64,000 nt of DNA from a virus. The position numbers were made by a program. The first letter of the stretch is position 1; every line of letters begins with the position of its first letter. Shown here in pieces: positions 12,001-15,000 of this stretch. The stretch lies in the IMG/VR virus record IMGVR_UViG_3300030012_004221, positions 32,001 to 96,000 of that record; one strand, written 5' to 3'.

Positions 12001-15000
12001 TTCATCCATATTTATCTTAATTCTATTAAGTTCATCTTTTTTAAATCTAGTATTTAAAGCTTCTTTAGCAAATTCTAAAATTTGATTTTGCTCTAACTCT
12101 GTAGCTTTCATTTTATTCATTGATTCAACTGTTAATGGAAGATTTTCAACCATTTCTTTAATTTTAACTTGTAAATCATCAAATGAATAACCCATATGTC
12201 TCATTTTAACTGATTCAAATCTTGTATCGGCAATTACCAATCCATTAGAACAAACTAATCTGTATAAACCTGCTTCAAAATTAAAAGCATTTTTACCATC
12301 ATGAGAATTAGTCATTAATATTTGTGGAAATACTGTATCTCCATCCTGACCATTAATTACAACATCATCATTTCTAAATACCAATAAATGTTTTTGGAAT
12401 CCTTGTGTTGATTTTTTCCTTGCTTTTACCTCTTTTGCTTCAATTGGTTTCCAACCTAACAATTCCATATCATCAATTACTCTTTCTGTTGGAATATGAG
12501 TATAGTGTTTTGACACCTCACTACTTGGTGTTTTAGCAAATACTGCTGGTGCAAGTGATTTAATATTTTCTTTACTTAAATACTTAGCTGTTTGTAATGT
12601 TTCTTCGTTTAGCATAACCTTGATTTTTAATTATTAATATGGGGTGAATATACGAACCCTCTCTCGGGGAACCAAACATTTTACCGGAAGTCTTCAAAAG
12701 TTTTTAAAGAGCTGTTACAAATATAACAACCATTATAATCACATATATTATTGGGCTGAGGTCAATTTTTCTTTCCATGCTGATATATACATTACAACAT
12801 TCTATTATATGTGGTTTTAATATTAAGTAGTTATTACCAATATTATATCAATATATATTTTATCGATGCCAAAAATTTTGTTAAAAAAAGAATCCACATA
12901 TCACGATTTTTTAATCCCTTTACCCATATATATCCTTATATACAATCGATGCTTTAAGATCGTTTTCGAACCATAAAGACAGCTAAAACTTTTTTTGCGC
13001 ATATACACGCCCGATGGACGGCGGCTATCCGTGGGTAATTACGCGGGCGGTACGGCGTACCACGGCGAAAATATTATGTAAATATGTAAGTGATATAGCG
13101 GTGAGGATATATCATCCAGTAAGTACAACGGTAGGGATAGTTACGTACTAAGTACTAACCACCCCTACACAAGGTACTACATAAATAATAATTAAATAAT
13201 ACTAACTTACGTTACATTAAGGTAAGCGGTACGGCTAAGGTACTGATGTATGCCTCCCTACCGTCGTATTCTGCACCACCAATGCATGCTCATAACACAC
13301 AATCACCGTTATCCACCGCACCTCCGCGCGTGTTTACCATATTTTACCTAAATATACGAACAATTTTTTGCTTTTCCAAACCATTTTACACATGCCTTTT
13401 GTGAATAGTTGCGAACAACGCGTTTACTTTGCGGTTCGTAATATATACTCGTTCCTATAGGTAAGGGTTGGCTGCGCGGAATAAAGGGGTTAATGTGAGT
13501 GTGGTTTTGGTTTATATTCCCCCTCACTAGTTGTTCATATACTATTTGACTTCTTTTTGGTTGTGTCATACTTGGTATTTTGTTTGTCATACTTGGCTAA
13601 CCTCTTCTTAAACGCATTTAAGTTCTTTGATTTGTAATGATCCTCCACTACAGCCCAAATAACTGCTAACGTAAACACAACAGCAACACCCATAAAACCT
13701 AATAAACCTTCACTCATCGTTTAGTTATTTTAATTAATATTCGTTTGAATCTTCCCCGTCGTCGCTGGAATTATCATCACCGTCACTCCATCTATCCCAA
13801 TCATTATTATCCTCATCTACCCATGGTTTGGTTTTAGGATCCTTTTCGGTTAATTTTTTCATATTAGCCTCCATTGTCATTTGTTTTAGAGCATTAATAT
13901 AATTAAACCTTTCAGTTACACTCATCATACGAAGCATATCTTTATCTAACTCACTATACTTTGGCATATTATAAATTTAATGATTTAACTTTTTTACTTA
14001 TTTCATTTGCAGTTTGAGCTGAACTCACAATAGCAATTACTTTAGCTACAGTGTCAGTTGACAACCACCCAGCAATCTGATCATCTTCTCTAATCTCAAT
14101 AAATCTTGAATCATTATCAAATACAGCAATTTCAGCACTTACTGAATCCCAGTAATCTTGTTTTTGAGGAGTACCATATGCATCTTTTTCTCTAACAGCA
14201 CAGTAATTACCTATACCCCACTGAACAGAAATACTAAATCCATTTTGGAAATCCATTTGAAATCCTTTATTCAAACAACTTGTAAACTTAGACATAACTT
14301 TATTTTTTAACTATTAATAATCCTAATAATAATCCTAAATTAATACTAGCTAAAACTACTATCAACACTTCTAAAATACTCACTTCTATCATAACTTTTA
14401 TTTTAATAAAACATTCTATTCCAAGTCAACCAACTAGGTTCACTAACTAATTTACCATCTCTCTCAACAGTACATTTATTACCACATTTAGATACCTTAA
14501 TTAACTTATTATTCCCACAATAATCTTTACCAATTGATTCTCTTAATTCACCAATCTTATTAAATCCATCTAATTTATCTGTAATACTTAAATCTATCAT
14601 AACCTTTATTTTTTATTTACAGGGTAAATATACGAACCCTTTCTCAGGTAGCCAAATCCTTTTGCATAAATCTATATAGTTCTAAAATAGTACCATCAAA
14701 ACTATAAACAATATCATGCATTTTACTTCTTTGAACTCTAAAATGTTTACTGAAATTATTAACTAGTCTATCCATCCTATCAGCTTCATCTTTCATTCCA
14801 TCTTCATACAATTTATTATAACGTTTTCTAGCTTTACTTTCAATTTCAATATAACGAATATCTTGTTCTATTTCATCTAAATTACCTTGATAATTATCTT
14901 TAAAATCCTTTTGTTCTTCTTTCATCCAATGTAATTCCCACTCAGCTTCTTGAAAAAATGGAGTTGGATCAAAATCACCATTTGTAATTTTATCTAATAA

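What the first reader, a model, noticed from the sequence alone, without database searches (positions are those of the whole stretch)
12960..13380. Promoter-driven, GC-rich structured non-coding island
Seen: a consensus early promoter (13350-13380) fires into about 380 nt with no credible ORF and much higher GC/CpG than the surroundings. TACAACGGTAGGGA (13124-13137) pairs with TCCCTACCGTCGTA (13255-13268); the single mismatch is a G-U pair on the transcribed minus strand. A second hairpin CCGTGG..TACGC/GCGTA-CCACGG lies at 13029-13065, followed on the minus strand by further GC-rich sequence. Inference: an undescribed phage ncRNA, or a transcript priming an R-loop origin as in T4.
Basis: partly seen in the sequence, partly recalled or inferred. 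Interest (0 to 1): 0.7.

Follow-up and report, generated by a model that had tools for sequence, protein, structure and literature searches.

The report
Conserved promoter-driven non-coding island in flavophage
A marine Flavobacteria-type phage aims one of its standard early promoters at about 400 bases that encode no protein and end in a sequence kept almost letter for letter in dozens of related phages, so the island is real and functional, but whether it works as an RNA or as a DNA site such as a replication origin is still open.

Summary
Window 13351-13380 (minus strand) is one of 11 exact copies of the phage's early-promoter cassette (TTTGG-N16-TTCGTATATT). It is the only copy with no start codon behind it. 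The stretch it fires into has the highest CpG density in the 158-kb genome: 18 CpG per 200 bp, against a mean of 1.5. No ORF in it is conserved.

The island has relatives. About 64-70 distinct homologues occur in marine viral and metagenome contigs, and Rfam has no match. Two layers can be told apart:
- A variable upstream module. In the window's type this is a promoter followed by about 330 nt.
- An invariant core of about 165 nt (window 12927-13092). The core shows neither excess folding nor covariation.

The second hairpin is specific to the window's own lineage. Metatranscriptome assemblies from three studies contain the island.

Best reading (0.4): an early non-coding RNA whose invariant core is recognised by sequence rather than by fold. 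Main rival (0.25): a transcription-activated DNA element such as an origin. GC skew gives no support for it, and the T4 oriF layout is not matched.

Three first-reader notes of this scan cover this same stretch of this genome, and one withheld follow-up report overlaps it. The scan has not noted it on other DNA.

The parts
13351..13380 (-). Early-type promoter cassette TTTGG-N16-TTCGTATATT. The transcription start is inferred at about 13343.
   Evidence: One of 11 exact copies in the genome. The motif recurs many times in Flavobacterium phage immuto. It lies 335-344 nt upstream of the core anchor in about 17 distinct type-B homologues. It resembles the Bacteroidota -33 TTTG / -7 TANNTTTG promoter (PMC6847099).
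13093..13343 (-). Type-B 5' domain. It has no ORF, a G-rich 5' half and a C-rich 3' half, and can form nested helices.
   Evidence: Sense-strand folding is z = -3.8 in the window, but about 0 in most other type-B lineages. Alignments A6 and A7.
13255..13268 (-).
13124..13137 (-). 3' arm of helix X.
   Evidence: Pair 115-241 reads GC 7, AU 4, GU 4. Pair 116-240 reads GC 7, GU 3, AU 2.
13178..13206 (.). Pure A+T stretch inside helix X, about 140-165 nt downstream of the inferred start.
   Evidence: Read directly. A homologous AT-rich linker is present in type-A and type-B relatives.
13029..13065 (-).
   Evidence: -14.5 kcal/mol, z = -1.53. It is kept only in the nearest relatives and shows no compensatory changes (sequences).
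12927..13092 (-). Invariant core. It comprises the GC block, ACCCACGG, GCCGCCGTCCATCGGGCGTGTATATGCGC, an A-run, and the first CATCGAT-GTATATA box.
   Evidence: Conserved in 64 distinct sequences. No consensus fold: -5.3 kcal/mol, z = +0.55. The only variable predicted pair is uncorrelated.
12936..12951 (-). Box CATCGATTGTATATAA, 66 nt after the core anchor.
   Evidence: The motif ATCGA-N1-5-RTATATA occurs only twice in the genome, both times in this gap. It is present at +66 in nearly all homologues.
12851..12868 (-). Second box CATCGATAAAATATATAT.
   Evidence: It is found at +149 to +167 in most homologues.
12704..12778 (-). 24-aa hydrophobic peptide ORF (MERKIDLSPIIYVIIMVVIFVTAL). It is an optional neighbour, not part of the core.
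   Evidence: It is conserved in about 60% of homologues and replaced in the others.
12647..12676 (-). Next early promoter cassette, which drives the DUF932 gene 11800-12615. It marks the 3' limit of the non-coding gap.
13385..13535 (-). Element U: a second conserved non-coding stretch, upstream of the promoter and behind the 60-aa gene.
   Evidence: Weak consensus fold. It is contained in RNA contigs of three studies.

Best explanation
The island is an early-expressed non-coding RNA locus of a marine Flavobacteriia-type myovirus.

Shown:
- A standard early promoter of the phage points into it.
- It has no conserved ORF.
- It is conserved in dozens of relatives.
- It is present in metatranscriptome assemblies.

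Inferred:
- Host RNA polymerase starts near 13343 early in infection and makes an untranslated RNA of roughly 400-480 nt on the minus strand.
- The 5' two-thirds of that RNA is a lineage-variable scaffold of helices. It pairs G-rich 5' segments (ACGGUG-like boxes) with C-rich 3' segments (CACCGU-like boxes).
- The 3' third is an invariant, largely unpaired ~165-nt core (12927-13092). This core is the working part, and it is read by sequence, by a protein or by another nucleic acid, not by a conserved fold.

In other lineages the same core is fed by read-through from an upstream gene instead. There it is preceded by well-supported RNA hairpins. Transcription into the core is thus the common feature, and the promoter is one of several ways to supply it.
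For: Promoter. It belongs to an 11-copy class, is the only copy without a gene behind it, and sits at a fixed 335-344 nt from the core in about 17 distinct homologues.

Non-coding. Both candidate frames fail in relatives, and 1-nt indels occur in the alignments.

Conservation.
- 89% identity to L003 and L004 over the whole gap.
- 68% to L011 and L012.
- The core is found in 20 viral-contig loci, and 71 of 94 metagenome loci carry its full core context.

RNA-level selection upstream of the core.
- Type-A hairpin H2 has 17-22 bp at -21 to -30 kcal/mol, with a conserved apical loop. Its stems are completely replaced in L005, L294, L277 and L288.
- Hairpin H1 is rebuilt with unrelated sequences.
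- Mean folding z is -1.35 on the sense strand against -0.12 on the antisense strand over 16 homologues.
- In the type-B helices, G-U cells outnumber A-C cells 59 to 31 on the sense strand.
- Helix X shows A-U, G-C and G-U exchange at two pairs.

Transcription. Contigs of three metatranscriptome studies cover 12843-13546. In run X15 the island contig has depth 244, against 27-67 for the adjacent DUF932 gene.
Against: - The core, the best-conserved part, shows no covariation and no excess folding. This fits a DNA site as well as it fits an RNA.
- It carries DNA-style palindromes: ATCGAT, GTATATAC and GCGTGTATATGCGC.
- Covariation in the type-B domain is not significant against shuffles.
- Excess folding of the type-B domain is confined to the window's sub-lineage.
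- The RNA evidence comes from assembled contigs. These carry no strand and no transcript ends, may include carried-over DNA, and have depths inflated where strains share sequence.
- No terminator-like site was found.
Confidence: 0.4

Rival explanations
1. The core is a cis-acting DNA element, most likely a replication origin activated or primed by transcription. In this reading the promoter, or read-through in other lineages, drives RNA polymerase into the core. There the G-rich RNA forms a hybrid or opens the duplex, and the invariant letters and palindromes are binding sites for initiation proteins. A packaging site is a weaker variant of the same idea.
For: - The element is unique in the genome and is the genome's CpG maximum in a CpG-depleted genome.
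- It shows letter-by-letter conservation without covariation.
- It carries palindromes and repeated CATCG and GTAC motifs.
- An A+T stretch lies nearby.
- Transcription into the core is the one feature shared by all upstream module types.
- The 5' half of the transcript is G-rich (GC skew -0.36 on the plus strand at 13200-13399).
- T4 origins use a promoter plus a downstream element, and oriE uses an early promoter (PMC3016281).
Against: - Cumulative GC skew is monotonic across the locus and the whole genome.
- The region directly behind the promoter is GC-rich, and the A+T stretch lies 140-165 nt downstream. T4 oriF and oriG place an A+T-rich unwinding element directly behind the promoter, and that element is sequence-independent.
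- The RNA hairpins H1 and H2, with covariation and a conserved loop, have no role in this model.
- No replication data are available.
Confidence: 0.25
2. The core is a transcriptional control region. It would hold operator sites and unusual promoters (GTATAT-type -7 elements, each preceded by CATCG) that time expression of the downstream peptide and DUF932 genes or silence early transcription.
For: - GTATAT is the heart of both promoter-like classes of this phage, TTCGTATATT and TTTGTATATT.
- It recurs at box 1 (13007), box 2 (12944), before the peptide ORF (12791) and in element U (13448).
- Palindromic boxes are typical of sites for dimeric DNA-binding proteins.
Against: - The CATCGAT-GTATATA box occurs nowhere else in the genome, so it is not a promoter class.
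- The DUF932 gene has its own early promoter.
- The peptide gene is absent in about 40% of homologues that still keep the core.
- No -33 TTTG lies at the right spacing from any box (sequence read directly).
Confidence: 0.15
3. The conserved non-coding blocks (element U, the island and the promoter cassettes) are mainly recombination linkers. Like the promoter-early stem-loop (PeSL) cassettes of T4-type phages, they would be kept because they mediate shuffling of small early genes.
For: - Gene content between U and the core, and after the core, differs among relatives. Two genes of 94 and 166 aa are present or absent, and the peptide gene is swapped for a 69-aa or a 110-116-aa gene.
- Every cassette carries the same promoter block.
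- PeSLs are described in PMC2839356 and PMC4122927.
Against: - Recombination linkers must be repeated within a genome, and the core is single-copy.
- Near-total conservation of 165 nt across phages whose neighbouring protein is only 58-80% identical exceeds what a homology patch needs.
Confidence: 0.1
4. The core encodes a small protein, either the antisense MDGGxPWV... frame or the sense MRKKxCS... frame.
For: Both frames give similar peptides in many homologues.
Against: - Antisense frame: the start codon is lost in L007, lengths run from 6 to 68 aa, and the changes are not concentrated at third codon positions.
- Sense frame: it is stopped early or frame-shifted in L005, L011, L024, L037 and L042, five of the sixteen lineages examined, and is not found in L052.
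- Conservation is strongest outside the would-be coding part.
Confidence: 0.05

Closest known systems
T4 oriF/oriG (and oriE) transcript-primed origins
   Same: A phage promoter fires into a non-coding stretch. Transcription into the element is the shared feature. An A+T stretch lies downstream. oriE depends on an early promoter (PMC3016281).
   Different: - T4 minimal origins are about 100 bp, with the A+T-rich unwinding element directly behind the promoter, and that element can be replaced by unrelated sequence.
- Here the first ~140 nt are GC- and CpG-rich.
- The functional-looking part is an invariant 165-nt core about 250-415 nt from the inferred transcription start.
- Many relatives have no dedicated promoter at all.
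ColE1 RNA II-type primer RNA (from general knowledge, not tested here)
   Same: A promoter several hundred nt upstream of a conserved site, with a structured, G-rich RNA in between.
   Different: This is a resemblance only. It is a plasmid system, there is no sequence similarity, and no antisense regulator or RNase H site is known here.
PeSL promoter-early stem-loop cassettes of T4-type phages (PMC2839356, PMC4122927)
   Same: The island's promoter belongs to a repeated early-promoter cassette family that flanks small, shuffled early genes.
   Different: PeSLs are short and repeated, and each precedes a gene. The island adds more than 400 nt of single-copy conserved non-coding sequence.
Bacteroidota primary-sigma promoter (-33 TTTG / -7 TANNTTTG; PMC6847099)
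   Same: TTTG lies 21 nt upstream of TATATTTA. Five of the six near-invariant -7 positions match.
   Different: Position -5 is A or C instead of G. The block TTCG before the -7 element is invariant in the phage cassettes. Recognition by the host sigma factor is inferred, not tested.
Small stable phage RNAs of unknown role, such as T4 species 1 and 2 RNAs (from general knowledge)
   Same: Early, abundant, non-coding, and without an assigned function.
   Different: Those are about 140 nt, processed from the tRNA cluster and tRNA-like in fold. No tRNA and no tRNA-like fold is present here.

Membership tests
Any Rfam 15 family | Covariance-model match at the family's gathering score | tested here: not met
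   No hit in the 64-kb window. At E<=10 over 12500-13700 there are only three chance-level hits, the best at E = 0.48 and 17.7 bits against a 55.6-bit cut-off.
tRNA / tmRNA | ARAGORN-detectable cloverleaf or tmRNA | tested here: not met
   No such gene in the window.
T4 oriF/oriG-type R-loop origin | Phage promoter at the 5' edge of the element | tested here: met
   Early-type promoter at 13351-13380. However, type-A relatives have no dedicated promoter.
T4 oriF/oriG-type R-loop origin | [quoted passage not shown] | tested here: not met
   The first ~140 nt are GC-rich, 0.40-0.42. The A+T run lies at 13178-13206. The downstream core is sequence-invariant. Definition from PMC3016281.
T4 oriF/oriG-type R-loop origin | Persistent RNA-DNA hybrid and initiation of DNA synthesis at the site | not testable with these tools
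   Needs infected cells. GC skew shows no shift, but it is dominated by one-directional transcription.
Structured non-coding RNA (comparative definition) | Helices supported by compensatory changes beyond what shuffles give | tested here: inconclusive
   - Type-B helices: 83% of cells paired, covariation score 0.192 against 0.171 in shuffles, reached by 37 of 500 shuffles.
- Type-A H2 and H1 stems are replaced wholesale while the loop is kept.
- The core shows none.
Structured non-coding RNA (comparative definition) | Excess thermodynamic stability conserved among homologues | tested here: inconclusive
   - Window: z = -3.65.
- Homologues: mean -1.35 sense against -0.12 antisense.
- Type-B 5' domain: mean z = -0.92, driven by the window's own sub-lineage.
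- Core: z = +0.55.
Bacteroidota sigma-A promoter | -33 TTTG and -7 TANNTTTG about 19-21 nt apart | tested here: inconclusive
   TTTG, then 21 nt, then TATATTTA. The last G is replaced by A. Consensus from PMC6847099. Activity was not tested.
PeSL cassette | Short repeated promoter (plus stem-loop) block that directly precedes an ORF | tested here: not met
   The promoter block is of the repeated class. It is followed by about 600 nt of single-copy non-coding sequence, not by an ORF.
Small protein gene | Open frame kept, indels in multiples of three, start codon kept | tested here: not met

The most novel reading that the evidence does not exclude
The invariant CpG-rich core is the primary replication origin of a widespread family of marine Flavobacteria phages. 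On this reading it is switched on by a structured primer or activator RNA made from an early promoter, or by read-through in other lineages. Alternatively, the core is a new class of phage regulatory RNA whose single-stranded invariant segment captures a host factor. Either way it would be the first defined non-coding functional element in this phage group.
Probability: 0.3. Interest if true: 0.7.

Novelty: new variant of a known kind. Interest (0 to 1): 0.5.

Why it matters
Phages of marine Flavobacteriia are abundant, but almost nothing is known about their regulation or replication. This locus offers a sharply defined target:
- It is single-copy.
- It has a dedicated early promoter.
- It has a 165-nt core conserved in dozens of environmental genomes from many surveys.

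If the core is an origin, it would allow replication to be studied and vectors to be built for this group. If it is an RNA, it adds a family that current RNA libraries lack. The promoter cassette defined here is shared with the cultured Flavobacterium phage immuto. It is also a usable annotation signal for early genes in these genomes.

Tried and rejected
- **Phage collection search.** blastn of the gap against 50,697 phage records found no match.
- **Cultured relative.** The closest one by the DUF932 protein is Flavobacterium phage immuto, at 45% aa identity. It shares only the promoter motif. It has no island, no core and no element U.
- **Cellular genomes.** A 14-base core pattern scanned in 185,579 prokaryote genomes returned only chance hits in GC-rich genomes, none extending beyond about 20 nt.
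- **Possible host counterpart.** The 20-base core pattern, with 3 mismatches allowed, was searched in 132 genomes of the order of a Chryseobacterium MAG. Hits were scattered 2-3-mismatch matches at no consistent place, somewhat more frequent than the reversed-pattern control. No conserved host counterpart or target was found.
- **GC skew as an origin signal.** Skew is monotonic across the genome, so it is uninformative.
- **RNA contig depth as an expression measure.** The apparent hot spot at 13406-13553 (depth 4000-5700) is confounded. Depths of contigs from many strains add up where the sequence is conserved, so only presence in RNA libraries is claimed.
- **Loose ends in the RNA contigs.** The ends at 13399 and 13546 are strain divergence or indels, not RNA ends.
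- **Helix between the GC block and GCCGCCGTCCATCG.** It is predicted in 64 sequences, but its one variable pair is uncorrelated (CG 16, GC 16, CC 13, GG 13), and the helix is weakened in the window's own type.
- **A plus-strand promoter (TATATTTG) in box 2.** It is present only in some lineages and not in the window (sequence read directly).
- **Anti-start-codon loop.** No such loop lies in the window's island; see the items noticed in passing.
- **Terminator scan.** None was found in 12400-13900.
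Full report
**Context.** The window is bases 32001-96000 of a 158,183-bp IMG/VR virus record, rated 97% complete by CheckV. The genome has 30.5% GC, and the long ORFs in the window are almost all on the minus strand. The finding lies in a ~920-nt ORF-poor gap, 12616-13535. The gap is bounded by a DUF932 gene (11800-12615, minus) and a 60-aa gene (13535-13717, minus). By the DUF932 protein, the nearest cultured phage is the 160-kb myovirus Flavobacterium phage vB_FspM_immuto, at 45% identity. The host is therefore probably a member of the Flavobacteriia.

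**Check of the observation.**
- *Promoter.* The 30 nt from 13380 down to 13351 read TTTGG-N16-TTCGTATATT. The pattern TTTG-N17-22-CGTATATT matches 11 times in the genome, always on the minus strand.
  - Ten copies sit 25-45 nt before a start codon, usually in the context AAAGGTTATG. The copy at 13380 is the exception.
  - The same block recurs many times in phage immuto.
  - It resembles the Bacteroidota -33 TTTG / -7 TANNTTTG promoter (PMC6847099). Recognition by the host sigma factor is inferred.
- *Composition.* The island has 40-43% GC against 24-33% around it. The genome is strongly CpG-depleted (observed/expected 0.33), while the island is not (1.6). Its 18 CpG in 200 bp are the genome maximum.
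- *Helices.* The inverted repeat 13124-13137/13255-13268 gives 13 of 13 pairs with one G-U on the minus strand. The enclosed domain has z = -2.72. The second hairpin exists but is within chance, z = -1.53.

**Not coding and not a known RNA.**
- Rfam gives nothing, and there are no tRNAs.
- Two frames produce look-alike peptides among relatives. The antisense frame loses its start in one lineage and varies from 6 to 68 aa.
- The sense frame is stopped early or frame-shifted in five of sixteen lineages and is not found in a sixth.
- Single-base indels occur in the alignments.

**Relatives.**
- The DUF932 protein recovered 46 viral-contig loci.
- Two contigs are 89% identical over the whole gap, and two more 68%. 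Many others keep only about 115-155 nt, corresponding to window 12928-13083.
- A 20-base core pattern found 18 viral and 94 metagenome stretches. These give about 70 distinct islands and 64 distinct cores.
- No cellular genome holds the core beyond chance.

**Anatomy.** Positions below are relative to the anchor CCATCG at window 13017.
- *Universal unit.* It runs from about -75 to +90. It consists of a GC block rich in GTAC, then ACCCACG, then GCCGCCGTCCATCG-GCGTG-ATATG, then an A-run, then the box CATCGAT-GTATATA at +66. A second such box lies near +149 to +167 in most homologues. These boxes occur nowhere else in the genome.
- *Type B upstream module.* This is the window's type, with about 17 distinct sequences. 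It has the early promoter 335-344 nt upstream, followed by an ORF-free domain.
- *Type A upstream module.* About 33 sequences lack a dedicated promoter. There the island follows the stop codon of a 166-aa gene of unknown function and begins with two hairpins.
- *Other modules.* A few further types exist.
- *Downstream.* A 24-28-aa hydrophobic peptide gene is present in about 60% of homologues. The next early promoter and DUF932 then follow.

**RNA structure.**
- *Type A.*
  - Hairpin H2 has 17-22 bp at -21 to -30 kcal/mol and keeps its apical loop GACAUAACC. Its stem is entirely different in several lineages. This is good comparative evidence for an RNA hairpin on the gene-sense strand.
  - H1 is likewise rebuilt from unrelated sequences, and G-U pairs are frequent.
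- *Type B.*
Its ACGGU/ACCGU centre is invariant, and two adjacent pairs change among A-U, G-C and G-U.
  - Two outer helices are plausible: leader GCGGU with GCCGU of the GC block, and CGGUGA with UCACCG. On the sense strand, G-U cells outnumber A-C cells 59 to 31.
  - The shuffle control is not significant: covariation score 0.192 against 0.171, reached by 37 of 500 shuffles. Sliding the partners by 3 columns still gives 59-68% pairing, because ACGGUG-like boxes are repeated.
  - Excess folding of the 5' domain is strong in the window's sub-lineage (z -3.4 to -4.5) and near zero elsewhere.
- *Across module types.* Mean z is -1.35 on the sense strand against -0.12 on the antisense strand.
- *Core.*
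  - Consensus energy is -5.3 kcal/mol and z = +0.55.
  - With 64 sequences, the only variable predicted pair is uncorrelated.
  - The core is therefore constrained letter by letter, not as a fold.

**Expression.**
- Contigs assembled from three metatranscriptome studies cover the island and element U. One 472-nt contig spans 12843-13281 at depth 244, against 27-67 for DUF932 contigs of the same run.
- Contigs give neither strand nor transcript ends. DNA carry-over cannot be excluded, and depth is inflated where strains share sequence. I therefore claim presence in RNA libraries only.

**Interpretation.**
- *What must be explained.* A dedicated promoter at a fixed distance, hairpins under RNA-level selection in the other lineages, sense-strand bias and RNA-library presence all favour a function that needs the transcript.
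- *Best reading (0.4).* The simplest account is an early non-coding RNA with a variable scaffold and an invariant core read by sequence.
- *Main rival (0.25).* The core's properties are equally those of a DNA site: single copy, palindromes, CpG richness in a CpG-poor genome and no covariation. A transcription-activated origin would reconcile both sets of facts.
  - It does not match the T4 oriF/oriG layout, which has an A+T-rich, sequence-independent unwinding element directly behind the promoter (PMC3016281).
  - GC skew is silent.
- *Lesser rivals.* These are a transcriptional control region (0.15), PeSL-like recombination linkers (0.1; PMC2839356, PMC4122927) and a small protein (0.05).

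**Verdict.** The feature is real, conserved and undescribed. The mechanism remains open between RNA and DNA, and ordinary experiments can separate the two.

Noticed in passing
L020:1180-1235, L022 about 2905-2960, and other type-A loci (L024, L213, L219): In relatives that lack the dedicated promoter, the conserved apical loop of hairpin H2 (GACAUAACCU) is the exact complement of AGGUUAUGU. That is the start-codon region (AAAGGTTATG-T) shared by the early-promoter gene cassettes. It could be an antisense regulator of early translation. The window's own island has no such loop.
   Followed up: partly
window 13385-13535 (-): Element U is a second conserved, CpG-containing non-coding stretch (TTAACCCCTT...CCGCGCA.CCAACCCTTACC.TAGG.AACGAGTATATA...). 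It lies directly behind the 60-aa gene and upstream of the promoter. In type-A relatives two genes separate it from the core. It has little consensus structure apart from a covarying GUGAAC/GUUCAC hairpin.
   Followed up: partly
window 8865, 10921, 12676, 13380, 14656, 17468, 19185, 21683, 25018 (minus strand), plus 2 copies outside the window: An early-promoter cassette family, TTTGG-N16-TTCGTATATT, often with a small CCC...GGG stem in the spacer and the leader AAAGGTTATG. It is shared with Flavobacterium phage immuto. It resembles the PeSL cassettes of T4-type phages and flanks small shuffled genes.
   Followed up: partly
whole genome; e.g. window 43294, 57055, 60559, 63793, 79179, 91183 (minus strand): A second promoter-like motif, (T)TTGTATAT(T), lies 29-45 nt before many start codons. 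Of 65 sense-strand TGTATA, 16 are intergenic, although only 5.6% of the genome is.
   Followed up: partly
window 12704-12778 (-): An unannotated 24-aa hydrophobic peptide ORF (MERKIDLSPIIYVIIMVVIFVTAL). It is conserved as a 24-29-aa peptide in about 60% of relatives and replaced by other small genes in the rest.
   Followed up: partly
G000:C1:135000-141000 (outside the window): About 6 kb at 48-50% GC in a 30% GC genome.
   Followed up: no
whole genome: Strong genome-wide CpG depletion: observed/expected 0.33, or 1178 CpG in 158 kb.
   Followed up: no
window 10975-11015: An intergenic cluster of three TGTATA motifs and a palindromic GTATATAC, just upstream of the early promoter at 10921.
   Followed up: no
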